Shown here: piece by piece, positions 1-44,714 of the stretch
Layout of the letters: every line of letters begins with the position of its first letter
Numbering within the stretch: position 1 is the first letter of the stretch
Notes under the pieces: model-generated
The model's database searches: none
What the model was told of the DNA's origin: nothing
The model's input: the letters and a program-made list of their open reading frames with translations, nothing else
Virus record (IMG/VR): IMGVR_UViG_3300045988_073112
Length of the DNA stretch: 64,000 nucleotides
Source of the DNA: a virus
Direction: 5' to 3' (one strand)
Translations under genes and position numbers: made by a program

Positions 1-45
1 TTCTAAGCTGTCACAATCTGAGTTCGAATCTCAGTAGCCGTACCA
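1..45 (+). tRNA. 3' part of a tRNA truncated by the window edge; positions 1-7 (TTCTAAG) fit the anticodon loop, giving U33-CUA-A37, a candidate amber suppressor tRNA-Sup(CUA)
   Basis: Counting back from CCA (43-45): discriminator A42, acceptor 3' strand TAGCCGT (35-41), T-arm CTGAG-TTCGAAT-CTCAG (18-34), 5-nt variable ACAAT (13-17), anticodon 3' stem CTGTC (8-12), 7-nt loop TTCTAAG (1-7). The 5' half lies outside the window. Confidence 0.5.
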
Positions 46-49
46 ATAT

Positions 50-395
50 GGGGGTATAAAGGTTTCGACGGGGCATTGAGAAGTTAGAACACACGGGTAG
101 GCGACCTTCTTACGGCGCAACAAACAATTAACTGACAACAATTATTTTGATTCTCACATGGCAGCTTGAGCTTTTGCTCGCTGACCATTAACTGTATACC
201 TCTGGTTTCTTTGTTTTCCTTCTAAAAATAAAGTGGTGGATGCGTTGTACTTATAACCGGTACGGCCCTATAGTTTAGTTAGTTTGTTCTTGACTTGTGG
301 CTCTATTCAAAAGCTATAAATAAGGACTATCGTGTAAGAATGTTCTGATTAAGTAGATGTTTCGGACACGGGTTCGACTCCCGTTACCTCCACCA
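50..395 (+). ncRNA. ssrA: tmRNA (SsrA)
   Basis: 5' end GGGGGTATAAAGGTTTCGACGGGG and 3' end TTTCGGACACGGGTTCGACTCCCGTTACCTCCACCA match the tmRNA tRNA-like domain (compare E. coli GGGGCUGAUUCUGGAUUCGACGGG ... GGACGCGGGUUCAACUCCCGCCAGCUCCACCA). An internal tag frame ends ...TATTTTGATTCTCACATGGCAGCTTGA (..YFDSHMAA-stop), parallel to the E. coli ...ALAA-UAA ending. Confidence 0.7.
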
Positions 396-400
396 AACTT

Positions 401-477
401 GTCCGCTTAGCTCAGCTGGCTAGAGCAACCGACTCTTAATCGGTGGGTCCAGAGTTCGAATCTCTGAGCGGGCACCA
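401..477 (+). tRNA. tRNA-Lys (anticodon CUU)
   Basis: Acceptor GTCCGCT/AGCGGGC, D-arm GCTCAGCTGGCTAGAGC, anticodon stem ACCGA/TCGGT with loop CTCTTAA, T-loop GTTCGAATC, 3' CCA. Confidence 0.8.
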
Positions 478-481
478 ATAC

Positions 482-571
482 GCGGGGATGGCCGAGTGGT
501 TGATGGCGCCAGTCTAGAAAACTGGAGGCCCAGTAATGGGTCCGGGAGTTCGAATCTCTCTCCCCGCGCCA
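482..571 (+). tRNA. type II (Ser-like) tRNA whose anticodon loop CTAGAAA parses as anticodon AGA; an atypical A34 variant of a Ser body
   Basis: Acceptor GCGGGGA/TCCCCGC, Ser-like D-arm TGGCCGAGTGGTTGATGGCGCC, perfect 5-bp anticodon stem CCAGT/ACTGG, long variable arm, T-loop TTCGAAT, CCA. Confidence 0.65.
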
Positions 572-574
572 ATA

Positions 575-652
575 TAGTTTGGTAGCTCAGTTGGTTAGAG
601 CACTCGATTGATAATCGAGAGGTCGTGAGTTCAAGTCTCACCCAGACTACCA
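575..652 (+). tRNA. tRNA-Ile (anticodon GAU)
   Basis: Acceptor AGTTTGG/CCAGACT, anticodon stem CTCGA/TCGAG with loop TTGATAA, T-loop TTCAAGT, CCA. Confidence 0.8.
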
Positions 653-1575: not shown

Positions 1576-1766
1576 TTTTCTAAAAATATTTTGTTATAAT
1601 ATTTATAGAAGATAAGAGAAGACGCTTGCCGCAACCACTACTATTGTAATAGTCAAAAGGTTAAGACATTTCTCTACAAAAGAAACAATTTGGGTTCGAT
1701 TCCCAATTACACAAAAGGCGTCTTGTTATGGTCAGCCCGTAAGACCTTAAATGGCGGGACACCTAT

Positions 1767-2711: not shown

Positions 2712-2951
2712 AAATCTACTAACCGGCATAAATCAATTTAACTGGTTGATAAGCCCCGTTTGTGGGGAGAAACGCAAGCAGCTCTTAAATGAGCGACACT
2801 CTGAGTCGGCAGAGCAAGAGTAGAGAACTGGAAGGTTGCAGCTCGAATACTGAATCCTCTAAAGAGTGGGACTTAGCGCGCGGAAGAACCCTTTGGCGTG
2901 GAACGCACACCAGTAAGGTTTGTAGTCAACCTTTATCAAAACTACATTTCG

Positions 2952-3074
2952 GGAGCTAGCTCAATTGGTAGAGCGCGTGTAATAATCCAGGTCTAGTAAA
3001 TAGACCACGACAGCAGCCACTATGATTTTCTAGGGACACGAGGTTGTAGGTTCAAATCCTGCGCTCCTGGCCAT
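2952..3074 (+). tRNA. tRNA-like gene with a roughly 48-55 nt insertion inside the anticodon arm (intron-like); the 3' side of the insertion would present loop TTCTAGG, i.e. a second possible CUA anticodon
   Basis: Acceptor CGGGAGC pairs with GCTCCTG+G+CCA at the 3' end. D-arm GCTCAATTGGTAGAGC. Anticodon stem CGTGT (2978-2982) pairs with ACACG about 60 nt downstream. The insert contains a perfect hairpin GGTCTAGTAAATAGACC. Variable AGGTT and T-arm GTAGG-TTCAAAT-CCTGC are canonical. Total 123 nt. Confidence 0.4.
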
Positions 3075-4382: not shown

Positions 4383-4455
4383 GCGGGGCTAGGTTAAAGG
4401 TAGACCATCAGCGTTAAAAGGCTGAAAAAGCGGTTCGAATCCGCAGCCCCGCGCC
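4383..4455 (+). tRNA. atypical tRNA whose anticodon arm parses with an 8-nt loop (GTTAAAAG); identity undetermined
   Basis: Acceptor GCGGGGC/GCCCCGC+G+CCA, D-arm GGTT-AAAGGTA-GACC, anticodon stem TCAGC/GCTGA enclosing 8 nt, T-loop TTCGAAT. I could not find any 7-nt loop register. Confidence 0.4.
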
Positions 4456-4481
4456 AATATGTATTGAAAGGACGTAAAGGA

Positions 4482-10427: not shown

Positions 10428-10488
10428 TAAAATGGACTGTAAATCCGTCGCTTATGCTACGCAGGTTCGAATCCTGCCCTCCCCACCA
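10428..10488 (+). tRNA. 3' two-thirds of a Tyr-like tRNA (anticodon arm to CCA) with no matching 5' acceptor strand upstream; fragment or pseudo-tRNA
   Basis: Anticodon arm ATGGA-CTGTAAA-TCCGT is nearly identical to the Tyr(GUA) tRNA at 4041. T-arm GCAGG-TTCGAAT-CCTGC, acceptor 3' strand CCTCCCC+A+CCA. A GCGGAGG plus Ser-type D-arm (TAGGGAAGTGGTTAAACCC) lies downstream at 10495-10520. Confidence 0.3.
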
Positions 10489-10602: not shown

Positions 10603-12093
10603 ATGAATACTTTTATGAACGCTATGAAGCAAGATACCAACTTTACCTTGACTGAGAATGGCGCAGTTACCCATAAGTCCACTCTGAATGGTCTTATGGA
10701 TTTGTTTGCGCTCGGTGGAGCATACCGCACTCGTTCTGATGCGGATTGCATCACTCTGTTCAAGGCAGCGTTTGACGAGGATGAAGCCCATGCTCTGAAG
10801 TGCCTGTTCTACCTGCGCGATGTGCGCGGCGGTCAGGGCGAGCGTCGTTTCTTCCGCGTTGTGACCAACTGGCTCGCTTCTCACGAGACTGAGGCTATGC
10901 GTCGTAACCTCCAGTTTGTGCCTGAGTACGGTCGCTGGGACGATCTGTATATCTTTGTTGGCACTCCTCTGGAGAAGGATGCTTTCAATCTGATGCGCCA
11001 TCAGCTGGCTTTGGATGTCTCTTGCAAGACTCCTTCTCTGCTTGCTAAGTGGTTGAAGTCTGAGAATACCAGCTCTAATGAATCTCGCCATCTGGCGGTG
11101 ATTACCCGCAATCACTTCGGCATGACTGCTAAGCAGTACCGTAAGACTCTCTCTACTCTGCGTGAGCGTATCCGCATTGTCGAGCGCCTCATGTCTGAGA
11201 ATCGTTGGGACGAGATTGAGTTCGACAAGATTCCTTCTCGCGCCGGCGTAATCTATCGCAATGCGTTCGCTCGCCGCGATATGATTAAGGCTAAGTATGA
11301 GGCTTTCGCTAAGGATACTGAGACTAAGGTTAACGCCAGCGCTCTTTATCCTCACGACATCGCACATCGTGCCTTTGAAGCCAATCGTAAGGGATTGGGC
11401 GATCCCGACCGTCTGATGCTTCAGAAGTATTGGGAGAACCTTCCTAACTACTACGGTGATAATGTCGAGAATGGCATTGCTGTTGTCGATGTTTCTGGCT
11501 CTATGGCCGGTGTTCCTATGGAGGCTGCGGTTTCCATGGGTGCGTACATCGCTGACAAGGCTCATGGCCCCTTCGCTAACCACTTCATTACCTTCTCTGG
11601 TAACCCTGAATTAGTGAAGTTCGAGGGCGCAGATATCACCGATAAGTTGTGCCGCTGCATCGGCGCAGATTGGAGTATGAACACTAATGTCGAAGCTGTC
11701 TTCGATATGCTGCTCAACACCGCAATGAAGCAGGGCGTAAAGCCTGAGGATATGCCCACTCGCGTCTATATCTTCTCTGATATGGAGTTTGACCACTGTG
11801 TTACCAGTAACTCTGCTGGTCAGCGTGGCTGGGGTTACGGTATGCGCAGCGATGCTATTCAGACTCTCTTTGAGGCTATGAAGGCTAAGTGGGCACGCTA
11901 CGGTTACAAGATGCCTAGCTGCATCTTCTGGAACCTGAACGCCCGCAATAACAACATTCCTGCGATTGGTGATGGCTTTAGCTACGTAAGCGGCTTTAGC
12001 CCTGTCATGATTCAGCAGATTCTCAGCGGCAAGGACGGACTCGATCTGATTCTTGAGAAGCTGGACAGCGAGCGTTACGCTCAGATTCACTAA
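10603..12093 (+). CDS. von Willebrand factor A (vWA) domain protein with a TROVE/DUF2828-like N-terminal region
   Basis: MIDAS motif VVDVSGSMAG. ATG 10603 with RBS AAAGGAG preferred over the upstream TTG in the track. Confidence 0.7.
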   Translation: MNTFMNAMKQDTNFTLTENGAVTHKSTLNGLMDLFALGGAYRTRSDADCITLFKAAFDEDEAHALKCLFYLRDVRGGQGERRFFRVVTNWLASHETEAMRRNLQFVPEYGRWDDLYIFVGTPLEKDAFNLMRHQLALDVSCKTPSLLAKWLKSENTSSNESRHLAVITRNHFGMTAKQYRKTLSTLRERIRIVERLMSENRWDEIEFDKIPSRAGVIYRNAFARRDMIKAKYEAFAKDTETKVNASALYPHDIAHRAFEANRKGLGDPDRLMLQKYWENLPNYYGDNVENGIAVVDVSGSMAGVPMEAAVSMGAYIADKAHGPFANHFITFSGNPELVKFEGADITDKLCRCIGADWSMNTNVEAVFDMLLNTAMKQGVKPEDMPTRVYIFSDMEFDHCVTSNSAGQRGWGYGMRSDAIQTLFEAMKAKWARYGYKMPSCIFWNLNARNNNIPAIGDGFSYVSGFSPVMIQQILSGKDGLDLILEKLDSERYAQIH

Positions 12094-12103
12094 ACCCTCT
12101 CAA

Positions 12104-12145
12104 ACGGGGAAATGGCAAGAAAATTGTCATTTCCCCGTCTTTTCT
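12104..12145 (+). terminator. rho-independent terminator
   Basis: ACGGGGAAATGGCAAGAAAATTGTCATTTCCCCGT hairpin followed by CTTTTCT. Confidence 0.6.
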
Positions 12146-12212
12146 ATTTATTGAAAAATAATTTAATTTATGATATAATAAATATATAAGGTAAGGAAAG
12201 GAAGTTACATAG

Positions 12213-13100
12213 ATGAATCCATTTGAAATGCCATTTCCAAGTTGGCTTACATCTTCGTTTGAAGCACCAGCGCAATCTGCCTCTGATTATTCTCTATATC
12301 GAGAGGACTTTGGTAGTATTTACAGCTTACTGAATACTATCAATAACCGTGAAAACAATAGCTTCATGCGTAATGAGGATTCATCTCAGGAGCATGGAAA
12401 TGAAGAGTGGAGTGGTACCAATTCTTATGAAGAGGCTCAGTCTCTCTTGATTCATGGCTACGAAGATCCGGTTAAAAGCATCAAGAGCAGTTTGGCTAAG
12501 AATAAGAAACTAACAAGCAAAATCTACAGTTCGATTCCGAAGCCTATTGCTCAGAACAGAGTGGTAGGATTTGTCCCTAATGTACCTAATGCTCTTAGAG
12601 GACTGCCGGAATCTATGATTACAATGGAGAAACTCCATAAAAAGAGAAAGACTATCTCTATTATCTACGCTACGGGCGGCAGTTGTGGCGTAGAAAGTGA
12701 TGTTCTAGCATCTGCGGGAGCGGCGCTTGTATCCGCCGTTAACCTTATTGAATTGTCTGGTGTGCAAACTGAACTGTCGATTGGTTTCATGCCTACGAAA
12801 GAAACTAAACAGATTATCTTCCCGACTGTGAAGATTAAAAGCTATGGTGAGCGTTTCAGCTTACAGAAAATCTGCTTTCCGATGATTCACCCCGCAATGT
12901 TTAGACGAATTGGCTTTAAGTATCTCGAAACCTGTCCCGGCATGGTGGAAGACTTCTCTCATGGCTATGGTCGTCCACCTGAGCTTGATGTTTTGAAAAC
13001 TCTTATCAAAGATAAAAATACCTATGTGATTAACCGTGAATGGATTACTCAACATGAAAATAACATTGAAGAAATTCTTAAATACATGGAGGTTTGCTGA
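12213..13100 (+). CDS. hypothetical protein (295 aa)
   Basis: RBS AAGGAAAGGAAG; lies between the vWA and MoxR genes. Confidence 0.55.
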   Translation: MNPFEMPFPSWLTSSFEAPAQSASDYSLYREDFGSIYSLLNTINNRENNSFMRNEDSSQEHGNEEWSGTNSYEEAQSLLIHGYEDPVKSIKSSLAKNKKLTSKIYSSIPKPIAQNRVVGFVPNVPNALRGLPESMITMEKLHKKRKTISIIYATGGSCGVESDVLASAGAALVSAVNLIELSGVQTELSIGFMPTKETKQIIFPTVKIKSYGERFSLQKICFPMIHPAMFRRIGFKYLETCPGMVEDFSHGYGRPPELDVLKTLIKDKNTYVINREWITQHENNIEEILKYMEVC

Positions 13101-13101
13101 T

Positions 13102-14061
13102 ATGAATAGAGATAAAATGCTCGAAGCGATGATGAAGGCGGTGACTGATGCAGTTGTCGATGTCAACGTGGATGAAATCCTGTCGAAAGTATATCCTCAG
13201 ATTGACGAGAAAATCCACGAAACTTATGGTTTCCTGCCGGAGATTCATGAAGTGCGGACGCCGACTGCAACCCATAAGATTTGCGGCACCACGCATGAGA
13301 AGTTTGACGAGGTTCTCAATATTGTCAATCTGGATATCCCCGTTTATCTGACCGGCAAAGCGGGCACCGGCAAGAACGTCATTTGTCAGCAGGTTGCGGA
13401 AGCTCTGGGTCTGGATTTTTACTTCACCAACGCCGTTACGCAGGAGTACAAGCTGACTGGCTTCATCGATGCCAACGGCAATTATCAGGAAACCCAGTTT
13501 TATAAAGCTTTTACGAAGGGCGGTCTGTTCTTCTTGGACGAGATGGATGCATCTATTCCTGAGACTTTGATTATTTTGAACGCGGCCATCGCGAATAGAT
13601 ACTTCGACTTCCCCAACGGCAAAGTTAGTGCGAACCCTAACTTTAGAGTCATCGCTGCTGGTAATACGGTTGGTACCGGTGCAGATAATAACTACACTGG
13701 TCGCTATTGCTTGGATAGAGCAAGTCTTGACCGTTTTGCTATGGTGAACATCGACTACTCTGAAAAGATTGAGATGGCTATGGCAGATAACAATAAGAAT
13801 CTGGTATCTTTCTGCCATCGTTTTAGAGAGATTACCGATAAGGCTGGCATTGAGTGTTTGTTTTCTTATCGTACTATTGATAGGATTGCAAAACTCGAAA
13901 CGGTAATCAATAATCTGTCCGAGGTTCTGTCTATCTCGCTACTTAAGGGCATGGACGAAGATACTTTGTCTATTCTTAAGAACGAGCTGTCTGAAGCTAA
14001 GGATATGACAAATAACAAGTATGCGAAAGCTATTATCAATGGTAATAGCTGGGATTTTTAA
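13102..14061 (+). CDS. MoxR/CbbQ-like AAA+ ATPase (AAA_5)
   Basis: Walker A LTGKAGTGKN, Walker B FFLDEMD, and the NFRVIAAGNT..G sensor region typical of MoxR-type ATPases. ATG 13102 overlaps the upstream stop and has RBS GGAGG. Confidence 0.7.
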   Translation: MNRDKMLEAMMKAVTDAVVDVNVDEILSKVYPQIDEKIHETYGFLPEIHEVRTPTATHKICGTTHEKFDEVLNIVNLDIPVYLTGKAGTGKNVICQQVAEALGLDFYFTNAVTQEYKLTGFIDANGNYQETQFYKAFTKGGLFFLDEMDASIPETLIILNAAIANRYFDFPNGKVSANPNFRVIAAGNTVGTGADNNYTGRYCLDRASLDRFAMVNIDYSEKIEMAMADNNKNLVSFCHRFREITDKAGIECLFSYRTIDRIAKLETVINNLSEVLSISLLKGMDEDTLSILKNELSEAKDMTNNKYAKAIINGNSWDF

Positions 14062-15689: not shown

Positions 15690-15992
15690 ATGGGAAAAAT
15701 TACTCGTCATAGCAAAGAGCGCATTGTTCAGAGGACTGAGGGATGTGAGAGTTTCGCAGAAGCTAAGAAGTTAGCTAAGCAAGCTAAGCGATCTGGTGCA
15801 ACTATAAATCAGTTTCAGAAGTTCCCTAAGTTCTTCTCGTATCTTCAGAACAAGAGAAACCAGACTAATACCTGTTCTATTAGAGTTTATCGAGGCAACA
15901 TTTATATCTGGCGTGGCAAAGATACATTGATTACCGCGCATCCTATCCCCGAAAGATATATTAAAGAAATGGAGGCTATTGGCGATGACTGA
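15690..15992 (+). CDS. hypothetical protein (100 aa)
   Basis: RBS GAGAGGAAG; TGA stop. Confidence 0.5.
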   Translation: MGKITRHSKERIVQRTEGCESFAEAKKLAKQAKRSGATINQFQKFPKFFSYLQNKRNQTNTCSIRVYRGNIYIWRGKDTLITAHPIPERYIKEMEAIGDD

Positions 15993-16782
15993 TGTTATGA
16001 GTAGAGTCCATGACCATCTCGATGAAAGTTTGCAGAGGTTTGACGAATCAAGAATCGTCGGTATCTTCTTGCAAGGCTCTCAGAACTATGGTCTTGAAAC
16101 TCCTAAGAGCGATGTTGATACGAAGCTGATTGTTACTCCTACTTTTGATGAAGTGGTTCTTAACAAGAAGCCTATCAGCACCACTCATGTAAGAGCAAAC
16201 AACGAGCATACCGATCTGAAGGATATTCGATTGATGCTCGCCACCTTCCGCAAACAGAATCTCAACTTCATTGAAATTCTCTTTACCCCTTATGCTTGGG
16301 TAAACCCTCTTTTTGAAAGTGAATGGGGTCGTCTGACTGCGGCGCGCGAGCAGATTGCTCACTACTCTCCATATGGCGCAGTTAAGACCATGAAGGGTAT
16401 CGCTATGGAGAAATATCATGCTATGGAGCATGAATATCCTAGCAAATTGGAAGTACTAGCCGAGTATGGCTACGATCCAAAACAGCTCCATCATCTCCTG
16501 CGGGTTCAGGAGTATATCCATAGATACATCAGCGGTGAATCCTATGAAGCGTGCCTGCATCCTAAGCGTCCTGAGTTTCTTGTAGCTGTTAAACAGGGGT
16601 ATTTTAACCTTGAGCAGGCCCGCACTTCCGCGGATGCGGCTATTGCTGACGTAATTGAAACTGCGGACGCCTTCTGTGAAAAAGTTGGTAAGACTTTCGA
16701 TACAGAAGTTGACGAATTGCTTGACGATGTGCAGTATAACATCGTTAAAAGTGCATTGAAAGGAGAAATCTTGAGTGATTAA
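15985..16782 (+). CDS. Pol-beta-superfamily nucleotidyltransferase
   Basis: GS-x9-13-D-x-D signature GSQNYGLETPKSDVD. ATG 15985 preferred over the TTG 15979 used in the track. Confidence 0.55.
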   Translation: MTDVMSRVHDHLDESLQRFDESRIVGIFLQGSQNYGLETPKSDVDTKLIVTPTFDEVVLNKKPISTTHVRANNEHTDLKDIRLMLATFRKQNLNFIEILFTPYAWVNPLFESEWGRLTAAREQIAHYSPYGAVKTMKGIAMEKYHAMEHEYPSKLEVLAEYGYDPKQLHHLLRVQEYIHRYISGESYEACLHPKRPEFLVAVKQGYFNLEQARTSADAAIADVIETADAFCEKVGKTFDTEVDELLDDVQYNIVKSALKGEILSD

Positions 16783-43796: not shown

Positions 43797-44714
43797 ATGA
43801 TTTATTATATATTATCAGGCTTGGTTATTCTTGCGTTAATAGGATATGTTTTATATCTCCGCAATAATCGGCTTTAGGTAGTATTGATAAATAAAGAAAG
43901 ACAAGAAGAAAATAAGCGTATTGAACAAGATATTGCATTGAAATAGAGAGAATTAGCAAAAGTAAAAGAAGATATTGTATCACATAATGAAATTGTCAAT
44001 TCTTTAAACGATACTGCGAATAAATTGCGGGAAAGCGCTGAATAGCGAGCGAAAGAGAGCGCTAAGGCTCAATTTGAAAAGAAAACTAAAGAGCTTGATG
44101 AAACATATCAAGCTAAAGAAAAATATCATTTAGCAGAACTTCAGTAGATAACTAATCAAATCTCTCATCAGCAAGACAAACTCCACGAATTAGAAGCTAA
44201 ATAGTTGTCTTATATCTAGGCTTAGCAACGCCAAGAAGCGATTGCCGCAGATTAGGACTATTATCGTCTTGCTATTGATGAATTTAGTTTGAATGATATT
44301 ACTCTATTGCGTGATTTGCAAATTCACTTTGTGAAAAAGGAAATCATTGATAAAGTAATATGGGAGACCTATTATCGTCCTGCGTATGATATTCTTATGA
44401 CCCATCTATTTGCCACTAATAAAGGTAAAGTATGCGGTATCTATAAGATTACCGATCTAACAACTGGTTAGGCTTATATTGGTTAGTCTGTTGATATTAA
44501 AGAGCGTTTTAGACAGCACATTAAAACCTCTTTAGCATACGGACCTGCGACTAATAAGTTATATTAGGCGATGCAAAAATCTGGTCAATATAATTTTATA
44601 TTTGAGGTTTTGGAAGAAGTGCCTAGAGATTAGTTAAATGAACGAGAGACTTATTGGATTGAGTTCTATAAGACTAAAGAGCTAGGTATGAATGGAACTC
44701 GTGGAGGTTCATAA
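43797..44714 (+). CDS. GIY-YIG homing-endonuclease-like protein (N-terminal TM helix, coiled coil, C-terminal GIY-YIG domain) containing 14 in-frame TAG codons and no TAA/TGA in 305 codons
   Basis: C-terminal CGIYKITDLTTG[TAG]AYIG[TAG]SVDIKERFR[TAG]HIK...YWIEFYKTKELGMN matches the GIY-x10-YIGQS..R..H..N..E GIY-YIG core, with a TAG at the canonical YIGQS glutamine. Ends at TAA 44712-44714 overlapping the next ATG. No obvious RBS at 43797, so the true start may be internal. Confidence 0.6.

What the first reader, a model, noticed from the sequence alone, without database searches (positions are those of the whole stretch)
50..395. Phage-encoded tmRNA next to the suppressor tRNA
The tmRNA has canonical tRNA-like ends and an internal tag frame terminating in TGA, not TAG. 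It would rescue ribosomes stalled at unsuppressed amber codons. Its co-location with the Sup-tRNA suggests a coordinated translation-control module in a recoded phage.
Basis: partly seen in the sequence, partly recalled or inferred. Interest (0 to 1): 0.6.

Follow-up and report, generated by a model that had tools for sequence, protein, structure and literature searches.

The report
Phage tmRNA inside a tRNA island
A phage that reads the TAG stop codon as glutamine carries its own complete ribosome-rescue RNA (tmRNA) inside a large block of tRNA genes; this is a new example of a known kind of phage gene, and its neighbour is an ordinary arginine tRNA, not a suppressor tRNA.

Summary
Window 50-395 (+) is a full-length one-piece tmRNA. 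Rfam RF00023 scores 97.5 bits against a threshold of 47. ARAGORN predicts the tag DNNYFDSHMAA with a TGA stop. Relatives in about 20 metagenomic phage contigs keep the fold: 61 pairs, 97.6% paired, 19 pairs with compensatory changes. They also keep a D-x-x-Y-F...[LMI]-A-A tag frame, so the gene is under selection.

The real amber suppressor lies about 2.7 kb upstream in relatives, outside the window.
- TAG does align with Gln in a subset of genes.
- At least nine suppressor-bearing relatives show no tmRNA near the marker gene.
- tmRNAs are already known in about 2.3% of phage genomes.
- Nothing supports rescue at "unsuppressed amber codons".

Most likely the RNA runs ordinary trans-translation on host factors, as part of a translation-support island. 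A weaker, testable link to recoding is the clean-up of ribosomes that read through TAG terminators.

All 13 phage tag variants stop at TGA. I cannot explain that. This is a new member of a known kind, of low to moderate interest.

The parts
1..45 (+). 3' part of tRNA-Arg(UCU), cut by the window edge.
   Evidence: Identical over its whole length to the tRNA-Arg(tct) that sits 4 nt upstream of the tmRNA in L002 and L005. The anticodon loop reads C-U-UCU-A-A.
50..395 (+). One-piece tmRNA, 346 nt
   Evidence: ARAGORN. Rfam RF00023: 97.5 bits, E = 8e-37. Homologues in about 20 phage contigs. Structure counts.
50..56 (+). Acceptor stem, 5' strand (GGGGGUA). It pairs with 385-391 and includes G3.U70. 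ACCA follows at 392-395.
   Evidence: G3.U70 is invariant in 9 of 9 sequences. Pairs 5-7 co-vary as CG, AU and GC types (helices 1-2).
69..95 (+). Helix H2, 5' strands (69-77, 82-91, 92-95). They pair with 356-364, 341-350 and 331-334.
   Evidence: 23 pairs, 9 of them with compensatory changes, 99-100% of cells paired (helices 3-5).
96..118 (+). Pseudoknot PK1. Stem a is 96-98 with 107-109. Stem b is 101-102 and 105-106 with 114-115 and 117-118.
   Evidence: The second pair of stem b (tmRNA positions 53:68) reads C-G, U.G, G-C, U-A or A-U in different lineages (helices 6-7). In the window itself stem a is weakened: GGU pairs with UUC, giving 2 pairs.
134..169 (+). Tag reading frame: GAC AAC AAT TAT TTT GAT TCT CAC ATG GCA GCT TGA, encoding (A)DNNYFDSHMAA*
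   Evidence: ARAGORN. The frame and the motif D-x-x-Y-F...[LMI]-A-A are kept in 13 variants, with synonymous changes such as TTT/TTC, GAT/GAG/GAA and GCA/GCG/GCT.
162..183 (+). Helix H5, the hairpin that holds the stop codon
   Evidence: 8 pairs, 97% of cells paired, one pair with A-U to G-C changes (helix 8).
209..266 (+). Part of the post-tag structured domain. It comprises hairpin 209-216/226-233, the invariant UGGUGGA at 234-240, and hairpin 244-251/259-266 whose loop ACC (256-258) can pair with GGU (235-237).
   Evidence: Hairpin 1 has 8 pairs, 2 of them with compensatory changes (helix 9). GGU/ACC is 96% paired (helix 10). Hairpin 2 appears in the MFE fold, and I see changes on both sides in L010, L016 and L047 by eye. 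The rest of the domain (267-330) is not resolved.
368..384 (+). T-arm of the tRNA-like domain
   Evidence: 5 pairs, 100% paired, 2 with compensatory changes (helix 11).
401..652 (+). tRNA-Lys(CUU), tRNA-Ser(AGA) and tRNA-Ile(GAU), packed 4-5 nt apart directly downstream
   Evidence: ARAGORN and Rfam. The spacing suggests the tmRNA is one unit of a polycistronic tRNA precursor; that is an inference.

Best explanation
Window 50-395 encodes a functional one-piece tmRNA that belongs to the phage. It sits in a run of tRNA genes separated by 4-5 nt, each with its CCA encoded. I infer that it is transcribed with them and cut out by the host's tRNA-processing enzymes. Its G3.U70/A73 acceptor end should be charged with alanine by the host AlaRS. 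No phage SmpB was found, so I infer that host SmpB and EF-Tu deliver it to ribosomes stuck at the 3' ends of broken or stop-less mRNAs. Translation would then resume on GAC and add (A)DNNYFDSHMAA. The invariant Ala-Ala C-terminus resembles the protease-recognition end of bacterial tags. The likely benefit is general. The tmRNA would keep ribosomes free during an infection that damages host mRNA, and it would dispose of the truncated products. It sits in a translation-support island with more than 40 tRNAs, a Thg1-like enzyme and an RlaP-type RNA-repair enzyme. Shown here: the identity of the RNA, its conserved fold, selection on the tag frame, and its vertical persistence in a phage family. 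Inferred: expression, charging, dependence on host SmpB, and the physiological benefit.
For: Identity. Fold under selection: 61 pairs, 97.6% of cells paired against 39-47% when partners are slid; 19 pairs with changes on both sides; 0 of 500 shuffles reach this. RNAalifold finds 17 compensatory pairs. Tag under selection: 13 tag variants keep the frame, the resume codon (GAC in 12 of the 13 phage variants, GCA in L043; GAC also in the Clostridiales relative), an A at position -4, the Y-F core and the terminal A-A through synonymous codon changes. Persistence: tmRNA is present in about 20 related phage contigs whose neighbouring ATPase is 46-98% identical, and the tmRNAs have diverged to 45% identity. 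No similar sequence exists in 50,697 GenBank phage records, so it is not a recent capture. Context: tight tRNA packing; Thg1-like, RlaP and AAA/vWA-type genes nearby. Precedent: 402 of 18,146 phage genomes carry tmRNA genes (PMC9004378), and huge phages carry tmRNA with or without SmpB (PMC7162821).
Against: There is no expression or tagging data. PK1 stem a is reduced to 2 pairs in this copy. The fold of positions 267-330 is unresolved. The MFE z-score is only -1.9. The SmpB search covered only the 64-kb window and partial relatives, and used a query sequence written from memory. One sister lineage (L015, L021) has no tmRNA at the same position, so the gene is dispensable for some relatives.
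Confidence: 0.72

Rival explanations
1. The tmRNA is the clean-up partner of the amber suppressor. Once the phage tRNA-Gln(CUA) is expressed, ribosomes read through the TAG terminators of host and early phage genes. Some then run to the mRNA 3' end and become stop-less complexes. The phage tmRNA supplies extra rescue capacity. Its own tag ends in UGA, which only RF2 reads, so tag termination is independent of whatever happens to UAG and RF1.
For: Read-through caused by nonsense-suppressor tRNAs is an established source of trans-translation substrates (Ueda et al. 2002, as cited in PMC3985003). Of the tmRNA-positive contigs with at least 12 kb fetched, all but one (L031) also show a tRNA(CUA) in the fetched DNA. 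All 13 phage tag variants stop at TGA, although phage genes here use TAA over TGA by 41 to 9. The one bacterial relative found uses TAA.
Against: The co-occurrence is confounded by shared ancestry, because all these phages form one family. At least 9 related contigs have tRNA(CUA) but no detectable tmRNA within 10 kb of the marker gene. tmRNAs also occur in many phages without recoding (PMC9004378). The two genes are not adjacent and their relative position differs between clades. UAA would also be read by RF2, so UGA is not required by this model.
Confidence: 0.2
2. One reading: the tmRNA rescues ribosomes stalled at amber codons that the suppressor has failed to decode.
For: In E. coli lacking RF1, unassigned UAG codons are resolved partly by tmRNA tagging (PMC6207430). 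The phage does carry in-frame TAGs.
Against: A host with RF1 terminates at UAG rather than stalling. No RF1 inhibitor or release-factor gene was found. The claimed adjacency to the suppressor is wrong. In the E. coli study, tagging at UAG destroyed the UAG-containing proteins and blocked phage growth, so this activity would harm rather than help a recoded phage.
Confidence: 0.06
3. The tmRNA is used for selective tagging or as a regulatory sensor. It might mark host proteins for degradation to recycle amino acids, or couple the lysis or lysogeny decision to the load of stalled ribosomes.
For: Both ideas have been proposed for phage or host tmRNAs (PMC9004378; PMC7162821, which cites Janssen and Hayes 2012). 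The phage tag differs from the one bacterial relative found: DNNYFDSHMAA against DEDNIYGELKAA.
Against: Nothing in the sequence gives the tmRNA substrate selectivity. No repressor or integrase context was found near it. The tag keeps the generic Ala-Ala terminus.
Confidence: 0.08
4. The tmRNA is a passenger: a host ssrA gene, or the 3' fragment that temperate phages carry as an attachment site, with no function in the phage.
For: ssrA is a common integration site, and phages often carry ssrA fragments (PMC9004378).
Against: The gene is full length, not a 3' fragment. It has been kept while diverging to 45% identity, with compensatory changes and a conserved tag frame. The strict motif scan of 185,579 species genomes returned only one candidate bacterial relative, 48% identical.
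Confidence: 0.03

Closest known systems
Bacterial one-piece tmRNA (SsrA, Rfam RF00023)
   Same: It has a tRNA-Ala-like domain with G3.U70 and an encoded CCA, a long helix H2, PK1 upstream of the resume codon, and an 11-codon tag ending in Ala-Ala. The stop codon sits in hairpin H5, and structured elements follow it.
   Different: It is encoded by a phage inside a tRNA array. The resume codon is GAC (Asp) rather than the usual GCN. The tag (DNNYFDSHMAA) is unusual and ends in M-A-A. The post-tag domain is rearranged relative to the nearest bacterial relative: the invariant UGGUGGA lies at position 185 instead of about 241. PK1 stem a is weakened.
Previously reported phage-encoded tmRNAs (about 2.3% of sequenced phages, PMC9004378; huge phages, PMC7162821; from memory, cluster C mycobacteriophages)
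   Same: A complete tmRNA carried by a large phage that is rich in tRNA and translation genes. Its proposed role is to maintain the hijacked translation machinery.
   Different: No sequence relative exists among 50,697 GenBank phage records beyond 38 nt of the 3' end. This lineage is confined to a family of uncultivated, TAG-to-Gln recoded phages, probably of Bacillota. No SmpB was found alongside it.
tmRNA of Clostridiales bacterium Firm_05 (LVAK01000142.1, locus L057 391-742)
   Same: It is the closest bacterial sequence found. It shares the CACGGGYA PK1 entry, the resume codon GAC, the UGGUGGA motif, the H2 3' strand CUAUCGUGUAAG and the Ala-Ala end.
   Different: It is only 48% identical. 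Its tag is DEDNIYGELKAA with a TAA stop. It has no flanking tRNAs, sits in G+C-rich DNA, and is followed by genes typical of an integrated element.
Stop-codon-recoded gut phages with suppressor tRNAs (Borges et al., bioRxiv 10.1101/2021.08.26.457843; code 15 validated in PMC9523058)
   Same: A tRNA(CUA) is present in relatives (outside the window here). In-frame TAGs are concentrated in a subset of genes, including lysis-type genes (NAGPA-SPOR at 715-1575 and a likely endolysin at 35059-36390). TAG aligns with Gln.
   Different: That preprint does not mention tmRNA (0 occurrences). In the close relatives of this phage the suppressor is a Gln-like tRNA with an added long variable arm, 91 nt in all.

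Membership tests
tmRNA (RF00023), one-piece | Covariance-model score above the curated threshold over the full model | tested here: met
   97.5 bits against 47, model positions 1-374, E = 8e-37. ARAGORN agrees.
tmRNA (RF00023), one-piece | tRNA-Ala-like domain: 7-bp acceptor stem with G3.U70, discriminator A, CCA, and a T-arm | tested here: met
   G3.U70 in 9 of 9 sequences. The acceptor and T stems co-vary (helices 1, 2, 11). ACCA lies at 392-395.
tmRNA (RF00023), one-piece | Long helix H2 joining the tRNA-like domain to the mRNA-like domain | tested here: met
   23 pairs, 9 with compensatory changes, 99-100% paired (helices 3-5).
tmRNA (RF00023), one-piece | Pseudoknot PK1 just upstream of the resume codon | tested here: met
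   Both stems are present across the family, with five pair types at position 53:68. In the window copy stem a has only 2 pairs.
tmRNA (RF00023), one-piece | Short internal reading frame that encodes a degradation tag ending in hydrophobic-Ala-Ala, followed by a stop codon in hairpin H5 | tested here: met
   DNNYFDSHMAA* at 134-169. The frame and motif are conserved in 13 variants. H5 is supported (helix 8).
tmRNA (RF00023), one-piece | Pseudoknots PK2-PK4 downstream of the tag | tested here: inconclusive
   Two hairpins and one loop-to-flank pairing are supported. Positions 267-330 are not resolved, and the Rfam alignment has low posterior probability there.
tmRNA (RF00023), one-piece | Alanylation, SmpB and EF-Tu binding, and trans-translation activity | not testable with these tools
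   These require biochemistry or genetics.
   The neighbour is tRNA-Arg(UCU). The suppressor is 2.7-3.3 kb or about 10 kb away in relatives, with variable relative position.
   L021, L025, L032 and six other contigs have tRNA(CUA) but no tmRNA in the 20 kb fetched. Whole genomes were not available, so a tmRNA elsewhere in those genomes cannot be excluded.
ssrA 3' fragment carried as a phage attachment site | Only the 3' part of ssrA is present, next to an integrase | tested here: not met
   The gene is full length. No integrase lies nearby among the ORFs scanned.

The most novel reading that the evidence does not exclude
In this family of TAG-to-Gln recoded phages, the tmRNA has co-evolved with the amber suppressor as its clean-up partner. 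It would rescue ribosomes that the suppressor drives through TAG terminators to mRNA ends. Its tag would be deliberately terminated by UGA (13 of 13 variants) so that release depends only on RF2 and is insulated from the contest at UAG.
Probability: 0.15. Interest if true: 0.6.

Novelty: new member of a known kind. Interest (0 to 1): 0.3.

Why it matters
Why some phages carry their own tmRNA is still unanswered. Here the gene has been kept under selection through long divergence in a family of recoded gut-type phages. That argues that trans-translation capacity matters to the phage and is not a hitch-hiking host gene. If the link to stop-codon read-through is real, it would add a quality-control component to the known toolkit of recoded phages (suppressor tRNA, release factors). 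It would also give a direct test: where on the proteome does the phage tag land? Otherwise this is one more entry in the list of phage tmRNAs.

Tried and rejected
1. Metagenome scan with TTCGACRGG-N(18-24)-ACRCGGGYA, meant to sample bacterial relatives and their tag stop codons. The pattern was too loose. The rest were chance matches. No bacterial baseline for stop-codon use was obtained.
2. Genome scan with CTATCGYGTAAG...GGAC...TCCACCA. It gave 4 hits: one phage contig binned in an Oscillospiraceae MAG (L056), one probable bacterial ssrA (L057), one 641-bp fragment and one chance match. This gave a host hint but only a single comparator.
3. ORF-coverage gain with TAG read as sense, intended as a per-locus recoding score. 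It was too noisy in tRNA-rich DNA to use.
4. Long-range pairings proposed by RNAalifold between the PK1 region and the invariant GGUGG or ACCGGU. I rejected these because the partner is invariant, so there is no true covariation, and because they compete with the canonical H2d and PK1 pairings.
5. tblastn with SmpB, RF1 and RF2 queries found nothing below E = 0.3.
6. A second tmRNA in the window: the 12-bit hit at 10447-10488 and the permuted-tmRNA hits are below threshold and overlap tRNAs. I rejected them.
7. An ochre-suppressor reading of the 8-nt-loop tRNA at 4383-4456, as an explanation for the UGA stop. I rejected it because 41 of 50 phage ORFs end in TAA.

Full report
**The observation**

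ARAGORN reports a tmRNA at window 50-395 on the + strand. Its tag is DNNYFDSHMAA*, encoded at 134-169. The Rfam tmRNA model RF00023 matches the same coordinates over its full length: 97.5 bits against a threshold of 47, E = 8e-37.

The sequence itself shows the expected ends:
- acceptor stem GGGGGUA/UACCUCC, with the G3.U70 pair that marks alanine acceptors;
- discriminator A followed by an encoded CCA;
- T-arm ACGGG-UUCGACU-CCCGU;
- tag frame GAC AAC AAT TAT TTT GAT TCT CAC ATG GCA GCT TGA.

**The neighbour is not a suppressor tRNA**

The window opens inside a tRNA (bases 1-45). An exact 24-mer from the tmRNA's 5' end found five IMG/VR phage contigs. In these a complete tRNA-Arg(UCU) lies 4 nt upstream of the tmRNA, and window 1-49 is identical to it.

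A real tRNA(CUA) does exist in the close relatives. It lies 2.7-3.3 kb upstream of the tmRNA, separated from it by 11-12 other tRNAs, which places it outside this window. In a sister clade a different, 75-nt tRNA(CUA) lies about 10 kb downstream.

**What the element is**

The window encodes:
- a YorL-type DNA polymerase III alpha, about 40% identical to those of Enterococcus and Bacillus SPbeta-like phages;
- both subunits of topoisomerase II;
- a DnaB helicase;
- PhoH;
- a nicotinamide phosphoribosyltransferase.

Relatives are contigs of 100-150 kb with up to 36 tRNAs in 21 kb.

TAG is read as sense in some genes. There are 28 in-frame TAGs in 45 ORFs. They are concentrated in a few genes:
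- the NAGPA-SPOR protein at 715-1575;
- a likely endolysin at 35059-36390;
- a GIY-YIG ORF at 43797-44714, which has 12.

Where relatives differ at aligned positions they mostly have Gln. The "recoded phage" premise is therefore sound.

Three host hints point to Bacillota, probably Clostridia. The polymerase relatives infect Bacillota. A family member is binned in an Oscillospiraceae MAG (L056). The closest bacterial tmRNA found is in a Clostridiales MAG.

**Is the tmRNA maintained by selection?**

I fetched loci around homologues of the neighbouring AAA ATPase. I screened them with ARAGORN, Rfam and an nhmmer profile. This found tmRNAs in about 20 related phage contigs. ARAGORN missed several of them. 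The tmRNAs have diverged to as little as 45% identity with the window copy.

I tested an explicit structure on nine distinct sequences. It covers the acceptor stem, H2, PK1, H5, a downstream hairpin, one loop-to-flank pairing and the T-arm.
- 97.6% of 545 cells pair, against 39-47% when partners are slid by 1-3 columns.
- 19 of 61 pairs show changes on both sides.
- No shuffle out of 500 reaches the observed values.
- RNAalifold independently finds 17 compensatory pairs.

In PK1, the second pair of stem b is C-G, U.G, G-C, U-A or A-U in different lineages.

The tag frame is kept in 13 variants:

| Tag | Locus |
|---|---|
| DNNYFDSHMAA | window, L012 |
| DNDYFDSHMAA | L011 |
| DNDYFDSYMAA | L010, L013 |
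| DNNYFDSYMAA | L115 |
| DNDYFENYLAA | L018, L020 |
| DNAYFENHLAA | L056 |
| DNSYFENHLAA | L047 |
| DEDYFENYLAA | L017, L022 |
| DNDYFSSNIAA | L016, L019 |
| DNYFEDRLAA | L036 |
| DDYFEELLAA | L138 |
| DEDFDYCELQAA | L031 |
| ARYQYQMAA | L043 |

Synonymous codon changes occur throughout, and the Ala-Ala end is invariant. This pattern fits a translated, functional tag. It does not fit a decaying passenger gene.

Some caveats apply.
- In the window copy PK1 stem a is reduced to two pairs.
- Positions 267-330 could not be folded with confidence.
- The single-sequence MFE z-score is only -1.9.

**How it probably works**

The tmRNA sits in a string of tRNAs separated by 4-5 nt, each with an encoded CCA. 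I infer that it is made from the same precursor and matured by the host's tRNA-processing enzymes.

I found no SmpB, RF1 or RF2 in the window or in the fetched relatives. The RNA most likely uses host AlaRS, SmpB and EF-Tu.

Nearby genes include a Thg1-like enzyme, an RlaP-type RNA-repair nucleotidyltransferase and AAA/vWA-type proteins. The simplest reading is a translation-maintenance island. tmRNA's share of the work would be to free ribosomes trapped on damaged or stop-less mRNAs during infection.

Phage tmRNAs are not new. They occur in 402 of 18,146 phage genomes (PMC9004378) and in huge phages (PMC7162821).

**The link to recoding**

It requires ribosomes to stall at UAG, which happens when RF1 is missing (PMC6207430). 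Nothing here indicates loss of RF1. In that study, tagging at UAG destroyed the proteins and blocked phage growth.

A better-founded link runs the other way. Suppressor tRNAs make ribosomes read through natural terminators, and this creates trans-translation substrates (Ueda et al. 2002, cited in PMC3985003). A phage that floods the cell with tRNA-Gln(CUA) could therefore raise the demand for tmRNA.

- For this idea: almost every tmRNA-positive contig also shows a tRNA(CUA).
- Against it: these phages are one family, so the co-occurrence may only reflect ancestry. At least nine related contigs have the suppressor but no tmRNA within the 20 kb fetched. The two genes keep no fixed arrangement. 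Many non-recoded phages carry tmRNAs.

I give this model about 0.2.

**An unexplained detail**

All 13 phage tag variants stop at TGA. In several lineages the codon sits in a hairpin loop, where a change to TAA would cost no base pair. The phage's own ORFs prefer TAA by 41 to 9. The one probable bacterial relative uses TAA. Shared ancestry may explain this. Insulating tag termination from RF1 is a speculative alternative. I could not obtain a bacterial baseline, because the metagenome pattern was too loose.

**Comparison with known systems and verdict**

This RNA meets every sequence-level criterion of tmRNA that I could test, except a full account of PK2-PK4. It has no relative among 50,697 GenBank phage records beyond 38 nt of the 3' end. 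A strict motif scan of 185,579 species genomes found only one probable bacterial relative, at 48% identity. It therefore represents a distinct tmRNA lineage propagated in phages.

It is a new member of a known kind. Interest is low to moderate.

Noticed in passing
window 2950-3073 (+); also L056 3472-3587, L047 12602-12714, L026 11129-11241, L029 9305-9963 (three copies), L027 9866-9980, L025 13230-13375: A tRNA is interrupted by an insert of about 50 nt in the anticodon loop. Rfam scores it 46.5 bits as a tRNA over 121 nt, and ARAGORN in intron mode calls a 50-nt intron at position 32. Over-long tRNA hits recur in relatives. The insert is far too short for a group I intron.
   Followed up: partly
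window 4383-4456 (+): A tRNA has an 8-nt anticodon loop, GUUAAAAG; ARAGORN reports the anticodon as 'taaa' (Leu or Phe). It is conserved in at least eight relatives, and L014 has the variant 'taga'. It could decode four bases or cause frameshifts, or it could be an odd Leu tRNA.
   Followed up: no
window 1642-1715 (+): A tRNA-like gene is called Cys(ACA). It has 30% G+C, no CCA and mismatches in the acceptor stem, yet it is conserved at the same position in relatives. A34 is unusual. Its function is unclear.
   Followed up: no
L006 394-484, L011 3215-3305, L021 2999-3089, L047 19029-19119 (outside the window): The amber suppressor of the close relatives is 91 nt long. Its ends (U1.U72, G73), D-arm and anticodon stem match those of the 75-nt Gln-type tRNA(CUA) of the sister clade, but it carries an added long variable arm. 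Which synthetase charges it is an open question, although TAG aligns with Gln.
   Followed up: partly
L019 8185-8780, L031 14061-14650, L032 13421-14012, L043 13947-14571; L025 12797-12909: ROOL RNA (RF03087, 277-350 bits) sits in the tRNA islands of several relatives, and RAGATH-33 in one. Neither is present in the window.
   Followed up: no
window 43797-44714 (+): A GIY-YIG homing-endonuclease-like ORF contains 12 in-frame TAG codons, by far the highest density in the window.
   Followed up: no
window 10603-14061 and 15985-16782, 27964-28794: A cluster of possible RNA-handling genes lies near the tRNA island: a DUF2828/DUF7788 protein (PHROG 'RNA-binding protein'), DUF7192 with an AAA_5 ATPase, an RlaP RNA-repair nucleotidyltransferase, and a Thg1-like tRNA-His guanylyltransferase.
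   Followed up: partly
L010 4707-5047, L013, L016, L017, L019, L022 (relatives): ARAGORN failed to call the tmRNA in six relatives where Rfam scores 71-77 bits. Surveys of phage tmRNAs that rely on ARAGORN alone may undercount them.
   Followed up: yes
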